Assembly: GCA_016927565.1 (NCBI GenBank)
Contig: JAFGMK010000015.1
Coordinates: 1,149 to 65,148, forward strand
From: Minisyncoccota bacterium
GTDB taxonomy: Bacteria > Patescibacteriota > Microgenomatia > PFEM01 > JAFGMK01
Direction: 5' to 3'
Length of the DNA: 64,000 nt
The translations under genes and the position numbers were made by a program. The notes under the pieces are model-generated. The model saw only the letters and a list, made by a program, of their open reading frames with translations. It had not been told where the DNA came from and did not search any database. This document shows positions 7,296-32,862 of this stretch, in pieces; within the stretch, counting starts at the first letter, position 1; every line of letters begins with the position of its first letter.

Positions 7296-8405
7296 ATGTT
7301 GATCGGGATTGACGGGAACGAAGCCAATGTCAGAAGCCGGGTAGGAAGTAATCAGTATTCTTTTGAAATTCTCTGGGGCTTGTATTTGTTAAGCCGAAAA
7401 CGAGATTTTGATTTTTTGATTTATTTAAAAGAAGCTCCGTTGGCTGATTTGCCGCCGGAAAAAAGCCGCTGGCAATACCGGAGAATTGGTCCCAGCAGGT
7501 TTTGGACTCGTTTCGCTTTGCCGCTGGAACTAACTTTCCGGCGGCCCCGGCCGGCGGTCTTTTTTTCTCCCGGCCATTACAGCCCCTGGTTTTTACCGAT
7601 GCCTCTGGTTGTTTCTATCATGGATTTGGGATATCTTCGTTTTCCAAAGCAATTCCGGCGGCGCGACCTTTATCAGCTGACCAGCTGGACTGAGTCTTCG
7701 ATCAGGAAGGCCAGGCGGGTGCTGGCTATCTCCCGGTTCACTCGGAATGATATAATTAAAACCTACCGGCTTGAGCCTGAAAAGGTAGTAGTGACACCTC
7801 TTGGGTATAAAAAAATACGGATAAAAAATTATAAACTGCAAATCGAAAGAATCAGGAGAAAATATCGGATTAGAGGTGATTATATTTTGTTTCTGGGAAC
7901 TTTAAAACCGAGTAAGAACATCGAGGGCTTAATTGAAGCTTTTGCCAGACTGGATTTGGCCGGAAACAATCTAAAACTGGTGATTGCCGGTAAAAAAGGC
8001 TGGTTTTTTAAAGATATTTATGAAAGGGTAAAAACTTTGAGTCTTGAAAAAAGGGTTATTTTTACTGATTTTGTTCCGGAAAAAGAAGCGCCGATTTTAT
8101 TAGCTGGGGCTTTGGTTTTCGTTTTGCCTTCTTTTTGGGAAGGATTTGGTTTGCCGGCCCTTCAATCAATGTCCTTGGGAACGCCGGTGGTGGTTTCCCG
8201 GGTAGCGAGTTTGCCTGAAGTAGTTGGACCGGCGGGGATTTTGGTAAACCCTCAAAAGCCTGATGATATTGCCCGGGGAATTAAGAAAGCTTTTAAGGAA
8301 AGAAAAAAAAGAAGCCGGCTGGGCTTGCTCCAGGCGAAAAATTTTTCTTGGGAAAAGTGCGCTCGGAGAACTTTAGCAGTCCTGGAGACTGTCGGTCAGG
8401 AATAA
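7296..8405 (+). CDS. GT4 family glycosyltransferase
   Basis: MLIGIDGNEA... N-terminus; EGFGLPALQSMSLGTPVVVS C-terminal GT4 motif. Confidence 0.8.
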   Translation: MLIGIDGNEANVRSRVGSNQYSFEILWGLYLLSRKRDFDFLIYLKEAPLADLPPEKSRWQYRRIGPSRFWTRFALPLELTFRRPRPAVFFSPGHYSPWFLPMPLVVSIMDLGYLRFPKQFRRRDLYQLTSWTESSIRKARRVLAISRFTRNDIIKTYRLEPEKVVVTPLGYKKIRIKNYKLQIERIRRKYRIRGDYILFLGTLKPSKNIEGLIEAFARLDLAGNNLKLVIAGKKGWFFKDIYERVKTLSLEKRVIFTDFVPEKEAPILLAGALVFVLPSFWEGFGLPALQSMSLGTPVVVSRVASLPEVVGPAGILVNPQKPDDIARGIKKAFKERKKRSRLGLLQAKNFSWEKCARRTLAVLETVGQE

Positions 8406-23668: not shown

Positions 23669-24448
23669 ATGAGATTTAGAAAAATGAAAAAAACAGCCAT
23701 TGTTTTAATTATTCTCCTGGTAATCGCGGGTTTAGCCGGGGGTGCTTTTTTTCTTTCCCGGGGCAAAAAGGAAGAAGGAAAGCCGGTATCGACACCGACG
23801 CCTCCGGTTTTTGTTGAAACGACTATTAATGAACGCCCTTTTGTCAGTCTTATCCCTTCAGAAGACGGTCATTGGTTGACGCTTAAAATCGGGCGGATTC
23901 AAAAGGCAGAGACTTTGGAATACGAGCTTTCTTATACCACCGGTGAGGGATTGGTCCAGGGAGCCTATAGCAGTCCTTTTGATCTGGGTGGGGAAACTGA
24001 TTATGAGAGAAAAATTCTTTTAGGGACTGAATCGAGCGGCAGATATCGTTATCACGAGGGAGTTAGGGAGGGGAATATCACTGTTCGTCTTGAGGGCGGT
24101 CCGGGGCCAAGAAAATATGTCAGCGAATTCAAGCTTCAACAGGGGGAAAATAGGCTGGTTTCCCCAGACAACGAGTTTGTCTTGGAGGCTGATTTTAATC
24201 CAGATCAGTTTTATTTGGTTATGCCGACAGCCGGTTTGCCGGGAGAGATAACGATTGAATCCGCCAGTTTGTATGGCGTTTTTACCTCGGGAAAGAACTC
24301 AATAAAAAACGGCCAGGCAGCCATTGGCGATTCAGAAGTTTATTTTTGGAATCTGGGATCCTGGGAATTGCTGGAAAATGGGTCAGCTGATCAGGTAGGA
24401 GTTTTTGCCGGCGCTGCCGGATCTGGTCTGCCTGAGCTGATTGAATAA
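23669..24448 (+). CDS. Hypothetical membrane-anchored extracellular protein
   Basis: N-terminal signal anchor (TAIVLIILLVIAGLAGGAFFL), then a Pro/Thr linker and a beta-rich domain. No motif recognised. Confidence 0.4.
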   Translation: MRFRKMKKTAIVLIILLVIAGLAGGAFFLSRGKKEEGKPVSTPTPPVFVETTINERPFVSLIPSEDGHWLTLKIGRIQKAETLEYELSYTTGEGLVQGAYSSPFDLGGETDYERKILLGTESSGRYRYHEGVREGNITVRLEGGPGPRKYVSEFKLQQGENRLVSPDNEFVLEADFNPDQFYLVMPTAGLPGEITIESASLYGVFTSGKNSIKNGQAAIGDSEVYFWNLGSWELLENGSADQVGVFAGAAGSGLPELIE

Positions 24449-24885
24449 AAAATGACTGAATCTGGTGAGAAAGCTGTTTTTTCCAGAAACAAAAAAACCT
24501 TACCCGCTTCAACCTGACACTTGCAGGAGAGATTGGCGCTGTTTAAAAAACAAAGTGCGAAACTTGCATCATTAGAGTTTTTTTTAACTACTCATTGTTC
24601 GGATAAGCGTTTCACAGTTCCACCCGGGGTAAATAATTTTGGTTTCGTGAACCGGCTCATAATGCCAAAATTAGACTATTTAGCCCAAATTACAAACCTG
24701 GTTAAAAATGGCTTTTTCCCGTCTTTGTCAAAAATTCTGATATACTTATTAAAGCAGGATTTTCCAATCCTTATTGGAGTTGTTGATATCTGGTTGGAAT
24801 TAAGGGTAATTGACCTGATTAATTGTGTTTAGGACATAAGTTTCCGCGCCTGTCATTGTCAGGATTCTAAAAAACCTTTTTAATT

Positions 24886-25731
24886 ATGTGGGAAACAGAC
24901 GATGCCTGGTTGTCTCCAGGTGAGATCGGAGAGGGTTTGTACTCAAGCCCTGAATTATATAGCCGAGCTATTTTACGACGACGGGTTATTCCGGAAACTC
25001 CGGAATCAATGCCCTCTGAAATCCGACTTGATCCTAAATATTATGGTGATTTGGAAACTGCCATTCTTGACACCGGGGGCCAATTTGTCCAGGGCGATGG
25101 TCGGGAAAGATATCAGGGAACATATTTAGGAAAGCCCGGGGCCAGAGATAGTCTGTCCCTGACCCGGACAGAATTGGGCATAGGAACCGAGCATAGCACC
25201 AGTGAATGGTCTGTGGTCCAGGATATTTTGGGAAGAGTCTGTCTTGGAAAAGCTATTGTTGACTATCATACTCATCCTAGGAGTCTTTTGTTTCCGAGCT
25301 TAACTGACGCGGCTCTTTTTCGAGCCGGCTACGGCGGGCATCTTAATTTAATTGGGACTGACGTGGGAGTTTTGGGATTTGCTTCTACGGAAAAGTCATT
25401 ACAGAGACGGATTCCTGCTTTTATTAACCGCCTTTTTTTTGATTCTCACAAAAGGAAACTTAAAAGAGGGGGGTTTAGTTATCCCCAGTTTAACGAGTTA
25501 ATTAGTTTTTGGAGAAGTCTCTTCAAAGATCCTCTGGGCAGGGGACTTAATCATGATCAGGATCAGTATCAGCTAGAAAAGACAGGCAGAGCTCTAGGAT
25601 CAATAGAGGCTGCTGGCCTAACCACCTATTTATGGCTTCCTCAATATGCCCCGCTTGATGGAAATAAATTAGAAGGTGGAATGGTAATGAAAAAAATTTC
25701 AGCTTCAGTTTTTTTTGGCGGGAACAATTAA
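24886..25731 (+). CDS. JAB/MPN+ (JAMM-motif) domain protein with about 100-aa C-terminal extension
   Basis: Exact JAMM signature H-x-H-x7-S-x2-D in DYHTHPRSLLFPSLTD, with an upstream candidate Glu (ELGIGTEHS). No partner E1/E2/Ubl gene adjacent. Confidence 0.55.
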   Translation: MWETDDAWLSPGEIGEGLYSSPELYSRAILRRRVIPETPESMPSEIRLDPKYYGDLETAILDTGGQFVQGDGRERYQGTYLGKPGARDSLSLTRTELGIGTEHSTSEWSVVQDILGRVCLGKAIVDYHTHPRSLLFPSLTDAALFRAGYGGHLNLIGTDVGVLGFASTEKSLQRRIPAFINRLFFDSHKRKLKRGGFSYPQFNELISFWRSLFKDPLGRGLNHDQDQYQLEKTGRALGSIEAAGLTTYLWLPQYAPLDGNKLEGGMVMKKISASVFFGGNN

Positions 25732-25811
25732 CTGGCAATTTCTCCAGCCCTAGTAAAACTAAAACACACCGGGAGCGACAAACAAAACAATAGCGGCGAT
25801 ATATTTTGCCT

Positions 25812-25841
25812 CTTGACAAAGATGTTCAAATTGGTAAAGAA
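25812..25841 (+). promoter_or_regulatory. Candidate sigma70-type promoter upstream of mraZ (TTGACA -35 with a weak -10)
   Basis: Perfect TTGACA at 25812-25817. Only weak -10 candidates (AAGAAT/TAAAGA) at 16-18 nt spacing. Confidence 0.25.
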
Positions 25842-25850
25842 TGGAACAAA

Positions 25851-25880
25851 GTGGTGAAAAGTAGTAATAAGTAGTCAGGG
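25851..25880 (+). promoter_or_regulatory. MraZ-box-like triple direct repeat (GTGGT/GTAGT/GTAGT on a 10-bp register) in the mraZ leader
   Basis: GTGGTGAAAA GTAGTAATAA GTAGTCAGGG immediately 5' of the mraZ GTG start. MraZ operators in other bacteria are three GTG(G/T)-type repeats at 10-bp phasing. Confidence 0.4.
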
Positions 25881-25886
25881 GGCAAG

Positions 25887-26294
25887 GTGTTTTTTGGTGA
25901 ATACCAAATCAAATTTTTAGGCAAGGGCCGGATTGCCCTGCCGAAAAAAATTCGCAGCCGGCTTTCGGGAGACAGGGTAGTTTTAAGCCGCGGTTTCGAA
26001 AGATGCATCTTTGGTTGGGAGAAAAAAACTTGGCAGGAAGCTTCGGCTAAACAAACCGAGGTTCCGGTGACTGAATCAAGGGGCCGGGCTGTCAGGCGTT
26101 ACTTATTTTCGGGGGCGATGATAGTTCAGTTTGACGTTCAGGGAAGAGCAGTTATTCCCAGTTTTTTGCTTGATTATGCCGGAGTGAAAAAAGAAGTGAC
26201 AGTAATAGGAGCAGGTGATCACTTTGAAATTTGGGATACTCAGGCTTGGCAAGAGGAGCTCGGTTCTATCGAAACTGATAAATTGTCAGGCTAG
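25887..26294 (+). CDS. mraZ: Division/cell wall cluster transcriptional regulator MraZ (GTG start)
   Basis: Duplicated MraZ half-domains (GRIALPKKIRSRL... / GRAVIPSFLLDYAG). First gene of the dcw cluster. Confidence 0.85.
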   Translation: MFFGEYQIKFLGKGRIALPKKIRSRLSGDRVVLSRGFERCIFGWEKKTWQEASAKQTEVPVTESRGRAVRRYLFSGAMIVQFDVQGRAVIPSFLLDYAGVKKEVTVIGAGDHFEIWDTQAWQEELGSIETDKLSG

Positions 26295-32090: not shown

Positions 32091-32833
32091 GTGACAAACT
32101 TTATTTTTGCCAATTTTGTTTATTTCTTCGATCAAAAGATTAGAATTTTAGGGGCTGGCCTTTCCGGCTTAACGGCCGTGATCAAATTGGCCAAAGCTGA
32201 TTTTGAGGTCGAGGTATTTGAAAGAGGTTCCGGGGTTGGTTGCCGGTTCGGAGGCGATGTTCTGGGAATCGAAAGTTGGTCAGAAAAAGAAGGGGTTAAA
32301 CAGTTTTTTAAGAGGATGAATCTTGAGATTAATTTTGATCTTGAGTTCTGCAGTCAGATTTGGTTTACCAATGACTGCCTTAATCGGAAACTTTCCTGTT
32401 CCAAACCGCCTTTTAATCTGGACAAGCGGGAATCATTATCGGGGAGTTTGGATCGGGGTCTTAAAAAGCAGGCTTTGGGTTTGGGAGTTGGTATCCGCCT
32501 TGGCCAAACGATGCCTGGCGGCCGGGCGGCAATTATTGCGACCGCGGGCCGCGCTTGGAGTTGGCCGTGGGAATTTTTTCCGGGATTGTTTTTAAAACCG
32601 ACCACTCAAAACAGCAAACTCAGCTGAATAATTTTTTGGAAGGAACCAGAAGTTTATTAGTTAAAAAGTCCGATCTTGAAATCCGCTCTTCACGGAGAGT
32701 GGGGGGAAGAGGCCAATCTCTTTTAGTCGGCGAAGCAGCCGGCTTACAAGATTTTTTTGCCGGCTTCGGGATAAAATATGCGATTGGCTTGGGGATGGGC
32801 CAAAGTGAATTACCCCCAGATTTTTTATTCTGA
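32091..32833 (+). pseudogene. Frameshifted, internally shortened FAD-dependent oxidoreductase (geranylgeranyl-reductase-like) remnant
   Basis: N-terminal Rossmann GxGxxG (RILGAGLSGLTAV...EVFERGSGVGCRFGGD) in frame 0. C-terminal GEAAGLQDFFAGFGIKYAIGLGM motif in a different frame (ORF 32555..32833). Total span about 250 aa versus about 380 expected. Confidence 0.5.
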
Positions 32834-32862
32834 GGTATAATTAGCTTGAAGAAGGAGAAAAA

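What the first reader, a model, noticed from the sequence alone, without database searches (positions are those of the whole stretch)
24886..25731. Stand-alone JAMM/MPN+ motif protein immediately upstream of mraZ
DYHTHPRSLLFPSLTD fits the metalloprotease JAMM signature HxHx7Sx2D exactly. A candidate upstream catalytic Glu is present, and the PxxxxxPSxxD spacing also resembles RadC-type JAB domains. There is no E1/E2/ubiquitin-like partner, HhH domain or phage tail context; instead it carries an uncharacterised about 100-aa C-terminal region. Together with the neighbouring membrane-anchored hypothetical (23669-24448) and a 437-nt non-coding gap, this is an accessory insertion between glyQS and the dcw operon. 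Possible roles are a peptidoglycan or peptide-tag isopeptidase, or an orphan component of a defence system.
Basis: seen in the sequence. Interest (0 to 1): 0.55.

Follow-up and report, generated by a model that had tools for sequence, protein, structure and literature searches.

The report
Solo JAMM metalloenzyme gene in CPR bacterium
This gene encodes a real zinc-hydrolase of the JAMM/MPN+ (deubiquitinase-like) type from a small, unnamed family seen so far only in candidate-phyla-radiation bacteria; it is a lone accessory gene with no partner, so its target is unknown and the finding is only moderately interesting.

Summary
ORF 24886-25731 (+, 281 aa) carries H128-x-H130-x7-S138-x2-D141. This is the only such motif in all six frames of the window.

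An exhaustive HMMER search found 20 distant homologues (27-43% identity). E74, H128, H130 and D141 are invariant in them, and S138 is nearly invariant. AlphaFold models of two members (pLDDT 82 and 86) have MPN topology. Their best solved-structure matches are almost all JAMM/MPN proteins (AMSH, Sst2, CSN5, Rpn11, Cap3), with weak E-values. The family falls below the Pfam Prok-JAB cut-off and does not match RadC.

No neighbouring gene is shared across eight distinct loci. There is no Ubl, E1/E2, CD-NTase or tail gene nearby.

The closest relative's contig has glyQS, the membrane-anchored hypothetical and mraZ in the same order but lacks the JAMM gene. The indel is therefore the 437-nt gap plus the JAMM gene. 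The membrane protein is conserved synteny, not part of the insertion.

The most likely function is a cytoplasmic Zn-dependent peptide or isopeptide hydrolase with family-specific substrate-binding additions, carried as an autonomous accessory gene. The substrate is unknown. It is a new variant of a known kind, of moderate interest.

The parts
24886..25731 (+). JAMM/MPN+ gene, 281 aa plus stop; the true start is the ATG at 24886
   Evidence: ORF list. Homologues align from residue ~20, and invariant P36 lies upstream of the database start M42.
24943..25017 (+). Family-specific N-terminal segment (res 20-44; consensus YLxILGxxxxPxxPExMP). It forms a helix plus an extended linker ahead of the MPN core.
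   Evidence: Y25, L30, P36 and P43 are conserved in 18-21 of 21 members. pLDDT is 94-96 over residues 21-60.
25018..25389 (+). MPN/JAB core (res 45-168): b1-a1-b2-b3-a2-b4-a3-b5-b6
   Evidence: Secondary-structure order of the AlphaFold model. Foldseek PDB top hits are almost all JAMM/MPN proteins. Pfam Prok-JAB matches res 122-158 at E 1.6e-4.
25105..25116 (+). E74-R75-x-Q77: putative catalytic general-base Glu at the start of strand b2, within the family motif 'ERSQ'
   Evidence: E74 and Q77 are invariant; R75 is present in 19 of 21. E74 aligns with the Glu of the RadC JAB structure 2qlc in a profile search.
25267..25308 (+). H128-T-H130-x7-S138-x2-D141: zinc ligands (His, His, Asp) and the conserved Ser
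   Evidence: Unique in the six-frame translation. H128, H130 and D141 are invariant; S138 is present in 20 of 21. The His pair ends strand b4, and S138 and D141 sit at the N-terminal end of helix a3.
25390..25611 (+). Helical insertion (res 169-242). Its length varies across the family and it is longest in this copy. Confidence is lower here.
   Evidence: Alignment gaps in columns 300-370. Helices at 178-194, 202-214 and 223-242, with pLDDT 55-72 for res 171-230.
25615..25698 (+). Conserved C-terminal beta-hairpin (res 244-271; consensus EGFAYYxWxPP...GDLxxGI)
   Evidence: G244 in 20/21, Y248 in 20/21, G265 in 19/21. Strands at 245-250 and 266-271, with pLDDT 83-94.
24449..24885 (.). 437-nt AT-rich non-coding stretch upstream of the gene. 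It is part of the segment absent from the nearest relative.
   Evidence: GC about 0.39. No Rfam match near threshold. Folding no better than shuffles, z -0.94 and +0.62. The 103-aa TTG ORF has no family or locus match. The segment is absent in L015.
25732..25812 (.). Right edge of the indel: spacer between the JAMM stop codon and the conserved mraZ promoter-like TTGACA
   Evidence: The TTGACAAAG...GTTCAAATT motif and AAGTGGT repeats are shared by the window (from 25813) and L015 (from ~2335). Sequence to the left of them is unrelated.

Best explanation
The ORF encodes an active-looking, cytoplasmic, zinc-dependent hydrolase of the JAMM/MPN+ (JAB) superfamily. It belongs to a small, unnamed, highly divergent family. 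The only two members with organism names come from Candidate Phyla Radiation bacteria (Pacebacteria and Daviesbacteria).

Inferred mechanism, by analogy with solved JAMM enzymes: H128, H130 and D141 hold one Zn2+; E74 activates the zinc-bound water; S138 stabilises the tetrahedral intermediate. I think the most likely reaction is cleavage of a peptide or isopeptide bond at the end of a protein tag or precursor, which is deubiquitinase-like chemistry. Substrate choice would be set by the family-specific parts: the N-terminal YLxILG...PxxPExMP segment, the helical insertion (res 169-242) and the C-terminal hairpin.

Biologically it is an autonomous accessory gene. It is absent from the nearest relative, sits in a different neighbourhood in every genome, and has no conserved partner. 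It does not belong to the dcw operon or to a Ubl/E1/E2, CBASS or phage-tail module.

Shown: motif, conservation, fold prediction, lack of partner, and the indel. Inferred: zinc binding, catalysis, bond type and substrate.
For: - Motif: unique in the window and far above chance.
- Homologues: 20 distant homologues among 1.84 billion representative proteins.
- Conservation: E74, Q77, H128, H130 and D141 are invariant and S138 is present in 20 of 21, at about 27% overall identity. This indicates purifying selection on a catalytic site.
- Known-family match: Pfam Prok-JAB is the only family hit, at E 1.6e-4 for this protein, and 6 of 21 members match it at E<=0.1. PADLOC JAB models give weak hits for some members.
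- Fold: AlphaFold models of this protein (pLDDT 81.6, pTM 0.82) and of the Daviesbacteria member (pLDDT 85.6, pTM 0.84) both show MPN strand and helix order, with the catalytic residues in canonical positions.
- Structural neighbours: Foldseek PDB lists for both models are dominated by JAMM/MPN proteins. For the second model the AMSH, Sst2 and AMSH-LP hits have probability 0.90-0.97. These DUB-type hits rank above RadC (E 0.14).
- Location: no hydrophobic N-terminus is visible in the sequence.
- Solo status: all-against-all blastp and phmmer over eight distinct loci find only the JAMM gene shared.
- Indel: L015 has glyQS, the TM hypothetical, then mraZ, with no JAMM gene.
- Another interrupted operon: in Daviesbacteria the gene and three others sit between atpD and atpC.
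Against: - No individual match to a solved JAMM structure is statistically strong. The best E-values are 0.009-0.02, with TM 0.2-0.45.
- The Pfam score of 21.9 bits is below the 25-bit cut-off and covers only residues 122-158.
- I could not inspect model coordinates, so the geometry of the zinc site was not checked.
- No substrate candidate (Ubl or tag) was found nearby.
- The profile search of PDB sequences puts a RadC JAB domain marginally first (E 0.11-0.25). A non-peptidase activity is therefore not excluded.
- Only two homologues carry organism names, so the restriction to CPR is provisional.
Confidence: 0.6

Rival explanations
1. It is a RadC-like JAB domain acting on nucleic acids or nucleotides (a nuclease or processing enzyme) rather than on proteins, as comparative genomics has proposed for RadC-type JAB domains.
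For: - The family profile's best PDB sequence match is the RadC JAB domain 2qlc. About 71 residues align, including the Glu, a shared 'GT' motif before helix a2, and HxH...S..D (E 0.25 and 0.11).
- RadC 2qlc also appears in both the Foldseek viral and PDB lists.
- RadC-type JABs are typically solo or found on mobile elements, and are proposed to process nucleic acids (PMC3239186, PMC5512222).
- One homologue lies next to a VirD4/TraG-like gene and another near recA/recX.
Against: - No Pfam RadC (PF04002) hit for any of the 21 members, even at E<=0.1; only Prok-JAB matches.
- The motif is HTHP rather than the HNHPSG seen in the aligned RadC structure.
- There is no HhH domain.
- DUB-type JAMMs outrank RadC in both Foldseek PDB lists.
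- The E-values to 2qlc are not significant.
Confidence: 0.15
2. It is a conflict gene of phage or mobile-element origin. It could be an orphan deconjugase of a Ubl/CD-NTase-type defence system encoded elsewhere, or a counter-defence protease. It would be carried as a single-gene insert with its own promoter.
For: - The presence/absence difference from the nearest relative, and insertion at operon junctions (glyQS|mraZ here, atpD|atpC in Daviesbacteria).
- Three of eight contexts hold mobile, TA or defence-island-type genes: VirD4-like plus a zeta-toxin-like kinase; a PIN toxin-antitoxin pair; AAA_14/DUF4143.
- The only statistically significant structural matches are viral proteins. These are the F317L/FV3-3R/IIV 229L/EsV-1-200 family of large DNA viruses and uncharacterised phage proteins, E 4.5e-6 to 4e-4 over 200-300 aligned columns.
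- Four of eight loci have a TATAAT-like box 7 nt before the ATG, consistent with an autonomous promoter.
Against: - No sequence match in 50,697 phage genomes, 72,556 plasmids or IMG/VR.
- PHROGs and PADLOC give nothing convincing.
- The gene's GC (0.45) matches its surroundings (0.43).
- No integrase, tRNA or terminal repeats at the indel edges.
- Five of eight contexts are plain housekeeping.
- The viral structural matches have high rmsd (6-16 A) and were obtained with one model only.
Confidence: 0.2
3. It is functionally tied to cell-wall synthesis or division, for example as a peptidoglycan-stem or lipid II-peptide isopeptidase, because it sits directly upstream of mraZ and the dcw cluster.
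For: It lies immediately 5' of mraZ-rsmH-ftsL-ftsI-mur genes, and no terminator-like site was found between it and mraZ. One homologue follows a VanW/PG_binding_4 gene and another sits beside an SH3_3 protein.
Against: - The nearest relative has the same dcw cluster without this gene.
- mraZ keeps its own conserved promoter-like site and repeat boxes downstream of the gene.
- Six of eight homologues have no cell-wall neighbours.
- The protein has no visible export signal.
Confidence: 0.04
4. It is a chance motif in a protein that is not a JAMM enzyme, or an inactive MPN- scaffold.
For: The Pfam hit is below threshold and short. Foldseek PDB E-values are weak.
Against: The Glu, both His and the Asp are invariant and the Ser nearly so, across 21 sequences at about 27% identity. 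Two independent models have MPN topology, and nearly all top structural hits are MPN proteins. Chance expectation for the motif is 1.2e-4 per protein.
Confidence: 0.01

Closest known systems
AMSH / AMSH-LP / Sst2 and other eukaryotic JAMM deubiquitinases (CSN5, Rpn11, BRCC36)
   Same: Same E...HxH...S..D catalytic set in the same secondary-structure positions. They are the best solved-structure matches for both models, and the catalytic core carries insertions in both.
   Different: Sequence identity is only 12-18% and TM 0.2-0.43. There is no MIT, PCI or partner-MPN context and no ubiquitin system nearby. The N-terminal segment, the helical insertion and the C-terminal hairpin differ. The Glu motif is 'ERSQ'.
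Pfam PF14464 Prok-JAB, including CBASS Cap3 (PDB 9ild) and the bacterial Ubl-deubiquitinase 8tyx_B
   Same: It is the only Pfam family hit. The HTHP...S..D block aligns with Cap3. These are small prokaryotic JAMM enzymes.
   Different: The score is below the curated cut-off (21.9 vs 25 bits) and covers the motif block only. The protein is about twice the size. No CD-NTase, E1/E2 (Cap2) or Ubl gene lies nearby in any of eight loci.
RadC-type JAB domain (PDB 2qlc; Pfam PF04002)
   Same: Marginally the best PDB sequence-profile match, covering the Glu, the 'GT' motif, HxH and SxxD. RadC-type proteins are also often solo bacterial genes of unknown substrate.
   Different: No PF04002 hit, no HhH domain, and HTHP rather than HNHPSG. 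It ranks below DUB-type JAMMs structurally.
Archaeal stand-alone JAMMs (AF2198, Pyrococcus furiosus JAMM1)
   Same: Stand-alone prokaryotic MPN+ proteins not necessarily linked to their Ubl genes. Both appear in the Foldseek lists.
   Different: Those are minimal domains of about 110-130 aa. This family is 220-280 aa with three added elements. Matches are weak (E 0.2-0.3).
F317L / FV3 3R / IIV 229L / EsV-1-200 proteins of large DNA viruses, and uncharacterised phage proteins (BFVD models)
   Same: The only structural matches with E<=1e-3 (down to 4.5e-6). They align over 200-300 columns, longer than the MPN core, which suggests a shared extended architecture.
   Different: No sequence-level link was found in Pfam, PHROGs or tblastn. 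The rmsd is high. Their function is unknown beyond a reported NF-kB effect of ASFV F317L (PMC8527992). I could not check whether they keep the JAMM residues. The match was tested with one model only.

Membership tests
JAMM/MPN+ (JAB) metalloenzyme superfamily | Catalytic motif E ... HxH ... S..D, conserved among homologues | tested here: met
   E74, H128, H130 and D141 are invariant and S138 is present in 20 of 21. The HxH-to-S spacing varies from 6 to 10 in the family.
JAMM/MPN+ (JAB) metalloenzyme superfamily | MPN fold with the Glu at the start of b2, HxH at the end of b4, and SxxD at the N-terminus of a3 | tested here: met
   Two AlphaFold models (pLDDT 81.6 and 85.6) have this order. Foldseek PDB lists are dominated by MPN proteins, with probability up to 0.97, but E only 0.009-0.02. 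Coordinates were not inspected.
JAMM/MPN+ (JAB) metalloenzyme superfamily | Binds Zn2+ and hydrolyses a substrate | not testable with these tools
   Needs a purified protein.
Pfam PF14464 Prok-JAB | Score at or above the curated gathering cut-off (25 bits) | tested here: not met
   21.9 bits, E 1.6e-4, residues 122-158 only. 6 of 21 members match at E<=0.1.
RadC (PF04002 / RadC-type JAB) | Match to the RadC profile; HNHPSG-type motif; often an N-terminal HhH domain | tested here: not met
   No RadC Pfam hit for any member. The motif is HTHP. No HhH domain. The profile-to-2qlc match has E 0.11-0.25 only.
CBASS Cap3 / Bil-type defence deconjugase | Encoded beside a CD-NTase or Ubl plus an E1/E2 (Cap2-like) gene | tested here: not met
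   No such Pfam families were found in neighbours at eight loci, and no neighbour is shared. PADLOC JAB models give E>=0.002 for single members only, and none for the window protein. Genes elsewhere in the genome could not be checked.
Ubl-processing JAMM of sulfur-carrier pathways (Mec+/CysO, QbsD/QbsE type) | Adjacent ThiS/MoaD-like beta-grasp protein and biosynthetic genes | tested here: not met
   No ThiS/MoaD/ThiF families in the neighbourhoods.
Phage tail-tip JAB (lambda K type) | Fusion to NlpC/P60 and tail-gene context | tested here: not met
   No NlpC/P60 domain. No PHROG match for the window protein. No phage genes nearby. tblastn against phages found nothing.
dcw (division and cell wall) operon component | Conserved position in the mraZ-led cluster among relatives | tested here: not met
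   The nearest relative L015 has glyQS, the TM hypothetical, then mraZ-rsmH-ftsL-ftsI without this gene. No homologue is present on that contig.

The most novel reading that the evidence does not exclude
This small CPR family may be a catalytically intact cellular relative of the F317L/FV3-3R/IIV-229L/EsV-1-200 proteins of large DNA viruses and of unnamed phage proteins. These are conserved virus genes whose fold and chemistry appear undescribed. If so, those virion-associated proteins would derive from an extended JAMM/MPN hydrolase. The CPR gene would then be a virus-derived single-gene insert acting as a partner-less protease in host-virus conflict.
Probability: 0.12. Interest if true: 0.65.

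Novelty: new variant of a known kind. Interest (0 to 1): 0.36.

Why it matters
If the reading is right, this adds a distinct, partner-less branch to the JAMM/MPN+ enzymes. It has its own add-on elements and is found in reduced-genome CPR bacteria, where most accessory genes are unexplained. A JAMM enzyme with intact chemistry but no Ubl, E1/E2 or cyclase partner raises the question of what it cuts. The answer could reveal either a hidden tagging system in CPR bacteria or a new use of the JAB fold.

The practical value is modest. The family is tiny (about 21 clusters at 50% identity among 1.84 billion representative proteins) and comes from uncultured organisms. The finding also corrects a database start codon. 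It shows that the gene is not part of the dcw cluster.

Tried and rejected
- Word-indexed homology searches were too insensitive. The single protein found only itself. The family profile found 2 proteins. A core-only profile found none (after a rejected E-value setting).
- The search for related loci with the family alignment failed because no stretch was conserved enough.
- The single protein against IMG/VR gave no relative. tblastn against phage genomes gave none, and against plasmids only a chance hit in a diguanylate cyclase.
- PHROGs, PADLOC and NCBIfam gave nothing usable.
- phmmer of the single protein against PDB sequences returned only chance MarR matches.
- The 437-nt gap has no Rfam match near threshold and folds no better than shuffles on either strand. 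Its 103-aa TTG ORF has no relatives. I treat it as non-coding.
- No target-site duplication or terminal inverted repeat marks the indel edges. No upstream DNA is shared among loci.
- Literature searches found nothing linking F317L to JAB, or JAMM to CPR.
- I considered filing the protein as RadC, Cap3 or a lambda K-like protein and rejected each (see the membership tests).
- I rejected the idea that the membrane-anchored neighbour is a partner, because it is conserved without the JAMM gene in L015.
Full report
**1. The observation**

It contains DYHTHPRSLLFPSLTD, which gives H128, H130, S138 and D141 at nt 25267-25308. The pattern H.H.{7}S..D occurs only once in the 128,000 residues of the six-frame translation. 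From the window's own amino-acid composition, 0.0075 occurrences are expected in its long ORFs and 1.2e-4 in a protein of this size.

Downstream lies mraZ at 25887-26294 (Pfam E 1.5e-29). It is followed by rsmH, an FtsL-sized ORF, an FtsI-type PBP, Mur ligases and murA. Upstream are a DUF4012 protein, recO, glyQS, a 259-aa protein with an N-terminal hydrophobic anchor, and a 437-nt gap.

**2. It belongs to a real but very small family**

- The word-indexed search of 5.8 billion proteins found only the protein itself. It is annotated 'hypothetical protein, Candidatus Pacebacteria bacterium', 240 aa, starting at M42.
- An exhaustive phmmer scan of 1.84 billion cluster representatives found 20 more proteins of 219-306 aa at 27-43% identity, with E from 1e-9 to 8.5e-4.
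- In their alignment, P36, P43, G54, E74, Q77, G100, H128, H130 and D141 are invariant. R75, T129, S138, G157, T168, G244, Y248 and G265 are nearly so.
- The full JAMM catalytic set (Glu, His, His, Ser, Asp) is therefore conserved at about 27% overall identity. A chance motif or an inactive scaffold would not show this.
- The matches begin near residue 20 and invariant P36 precedes M42, so the database start is too short and 24886 is the true start.
- Only two members have organism names: Pacebacteria (this one) and Daviesbacteria (P0020, seen on 17 contigs). Both are CPR/Microgenomates. The rest are unnamed metagenome contigs.

**3. Relation to known families by sequence**

- Pfam gives one hit, Prok-JAB (PF14464). 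It scores E 1.6e-4 and 21.9 bits against a 25-bit cut-off, and covers only residues 122-158.
- Six of 21 members reach Prok-JAB at E<=0.1. None reaches RadC or any other family.
- NCBIfam, PHROGs and PADLOC give nothing convincing.
- A profile of the family searched against PDB sequences puts a RadC JAB domain (2qlc) first, at E 0.25 for the full profile and 0.11 for the core. About 71 residues align, spanning the Glu, a 'GT' motif, HxH and SxxD. CBASS Cap3 (9ild) comes second at E 0.55 and 0.18.
- By sequence, the family is a JAB-superfamily outlier roughly equidistant from the prokaryotic DUB-like and RadC-like branches. It is a member of neither by their own thresholds.

**4. Fold**

AlphaFold2 on the 21-sequence alignment gave pLDDT 81.6 and pTM 0.82. 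The order of elements is:

- b1: 45-48
- a1: 50-63
- b2: 75-81
- b3: 92-94
- a2: 106-120
- b4: 125-129
- a3: 139-146
- b5: 153-157
- b6: 162-167

This is the MPN core. E74 sits at the start of b2, H128 and H130 at the end of b4, and S138 and D141 at the N-terminus of a3, which are the canonical positions.

The 'uncharacterised C-terminal 100 aa' resolves into three helices (178-242) and a conserved beta-hairpin (245-250 and 266-271). The helices vary in length across the family and have lower confidence.

Foldseek against the PDB returned a list in which the first 40 matches are JAMM/MPN proteins: CSN5, AMSH-LP, Cap3, Rpn11, Sst2, BRCC36, Prp8-Jab1 and PfJAMM1, with AF2198 following at rank 42. 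E-values were only 0.018 and worse, with TM 0.2-0.44.

As a check, a second member (Daviesbacteria P0020, 27% identical) was modelled independently (pLDDT 85.6, pTM 0.84). Its top PDB hits were Sst2, AMSH, AMSH-LP and STAMBPL1, with probability 0.90-0.97, E 0.009-0.03 and TM 0.35-0.43. The Npl4 MPN domain and a bacterial Ubl-deubiquitinase (8tyx_B) also appeared. RadC 2qlc came further down at E 0.14, and cytidine deaminases of the same fold class lower still.

**5. An unexpected structural neighbour**

Against predicted viral structures, 11 matches reach E<=1e-3 over 200-300 aligned columns:

- an abalone asfa-like virus F317L homologue (4.5e-6)
- a 182-aa siphovirus protein (7e-6, TM 0.51 on the target)
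- frog virus 3 ORF 3R
- further iridovirus, pithovirus, prasinovirus and Heterosigma akashiwo virus proteins

Just past that cut-off come IIV-3 229L (1.0e-3), EsV-1-200 (1.3e-3) and ASFV F317L itself (2.7e-3). Annotated JAB and RadC phage proteins score only about 1e-2.

The aligned length exceeds the MPN core, which hints at a shared extended architecture. I found no sequence-level support and no paper linking F317L to JAB. The rmsd values are high and only one model was tested. I record this as a lead, not a result.

**6. Genomic context**

I read eight distinct loci that carry a family member. All-against-all blastp and phmmer of every ORF within 4 kb show that the JAMM gene is the only thing they share. 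The neighbourhoods are:

| Locus | Neighbourhood |
|---|---|
| Window | dcw cluster |
| Daviesbacteria | Inside the ATP synthase operon, between atpD and atpC, with three other genes |
| L008 / L011 | Island of small hypotheticals with a VirD4/TraG-like ATPase, a zeta-toxin-like kinase and an SH3_3 protein |
| L009 | recA/recX/RNase Y region |
| L010 | After a VanW/PG_binding_4 gene |
| L013 | A HAD hydrolase and a PIN toxin-antitoxin pair |
| L014 | A serine hydrolase and an AAA_14/DUF4143 ATPase |
| L001 | Small hypothetical ORFs, a MtN3/PQ-loop protein and a DUF5674 protein |

No Ubl, E1, E2, CD-NTase, HhH or tail gene appears anywhere. Four of eight loci have a TATAAT or TACAAT box ending 7 nt before the ATG. 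This is consistent with an own-promoter, possibly leaderless, single-gene unit. The window copy lacks a clear one.

**7. The 'accessory insertion' claim**

A scan of species-representative genomes with the window's GlyRS found a contig (L015) whose GlyRS is 74% identical. Its gene order is glyQS, a homologue of the 259-aa membrane-anchored protein (45% identity), then mraZ, rsmH, ftsL, ftsI and a Mur ligase. It has no JAMM gene and only about 45 nt between the membrane protein's stop codon and the mraZ promoter-like TTGACA.

The mraZ promoter-like site and the AAGTGGT repeat boxes are conserved between the two. The segment that differs is therefore 24449 to about 25812: the 437-nt gap, the JAMM gene and a short spacer.

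The membrane protein is conserved synteny and is not part of the insertion. I cannot tell insertion here from deletion there, because the next relatives have a different order.

The edges carry no direct or inverted repeats. There is no tRNA or integrase nearby. The gene's GC (0.45) matches the locus (0.43). The gap has no RNA-family match and no unusual folding.

**8. What it most likely does**

- Shown: conserved catalytic residues, predicted MPN fold, no visible export signal, solo status, and presence/absence variation.
- Inferred: a cytoplasmic Zn2+ hydrolase in which H128, H130 and D141 bind the metal, E74 activates water, and S138 stabilises the intermediate.
- I favour a peptide or isopeptide substrate (about 0.5-0.6), because DUB-type JAMMs and Prok-JAB are the nearest structures and profiles.
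- A RadC-like nucleic-acid role is next (about 0.15).
- A conflict-related origin or role overlaps with either chemistry (about 0.2).
- A dcw or peptidoglycan role is unlikely (about 0.04).
- The family-specific N-terminal segment, helical insertion and C-terminal hairpin are the obvious candidates for substrate recognition.

**9. Novelty and verdict**

This is a real feature, correctly spotted. It is a new, unnamed, divergent branch of a well-known enzyme superfamily, with its own additions and no partner. That makes it a new variant of a known kind.

A specialist would find it mildly interesting but not surprising. Orphan JAB domains are common in prokaryotes, and the family is tiny and comes from uncultured organisms. 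The structural link to the virus F317L/3R family is the one thread that could raise its value.

Interest: 0.36.

Noticed in passing
L015 1-8486 (DATLAM010000062.1): This contig is titled 'Candidatus Bathyarchaeia archaeon' but encodes a bacterial dcw cluster (mraZ, rsmH, ftsL, ftsI, Mur ligase) and a GlyRS 74% identical to the window's. It is probably a CPR contig mis-binned into an archaeal MAG.
   Followed up: partly
window 25813-25880; L015 2335-2390: Upstream of mraZ there is a conserved TTGACAAAG...GTTCAAATT promoter-like site, followed by two or three direct AAGTGGT/AAGTAGT repeats. These are probably MraZ operator boxes. They are retained in both genomes whether or not the JAMM gene is present.
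   Followed up: partly
L003 4147-10061 (Daviesbacteria MFDB01000023.1): The ATP synthase operon is interrupted between atpD (beta) and atpC (epsilon) by about 4 kb. The insert holds a 525-aa hypothetical, a glyoxalase-family gene, a 321-aa hypothetical and the JAMM homologue. An IS200-type Y1 transposase lies beyond atpB.
   Followed up: no
L003 ~7985-8000, L008 ~7985-8000, L009 ~7985-8000, L014 ~368-383: In four of eight JAMM loci, a TATAAT or TACAAT box ends 7 nt before the start codon and no Shine-Dalgarno sequence is visible. This suggests leaderless transcripts. The window copy has only a weak TTTAAT next to its ATG.
   Followed up: no
window 24886-25008: The public annotation of this protein (P0001, 240 aa) starts at M42. 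This cuts off 41 residues that include conserved family positions (Y25, L30, invariant P36).
   Followed up: yes
model m48ff7cba69a8 vs BFVD: The best structural matches overall are virus proteins of unknown fold: the F317L/FV3-3R/IIV-229L/EsV-1-200 family of large DNA viruses, and phage 'minor capsid' or uncharacterised proteins. E-values go down to 4.5e-6, much better than to annotated JAB proteins.
   Followed up: partly
L008 1-16496 and L011/L012: The JAMM homologue sits in a run of more than 15 small hypothetical genes. The run also holds a VirD4/TraG-like ATPase, a zeta-toxin/AAA_33-like kinase whose 3' end overlaps the JAMM stop codon convergently, and a PT-rich SH3_3 protein. This may be a mobile or conjugative island in a CPR-like genome.
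   Followed up: no
window 32091-32862: A 178-aa ORF matches only the first 34 positions of an NAD_binding_8 Rossmann motif. It is followed by a 236-nt gap inside the otherwise tightly packed mur gene run. It may be a truncated or remnant gene.
   Followed up: no
A1 columns around the HxH...S..D block: The spacing between HxH and the Ser is not fixed at 7 in this family. It ranges from about 6 (P0011) to 10 (P0020, P0019, P0012). A strict HxHx7Sx2D pattern search would therefore miss about half of the members.
   Followed up: yes
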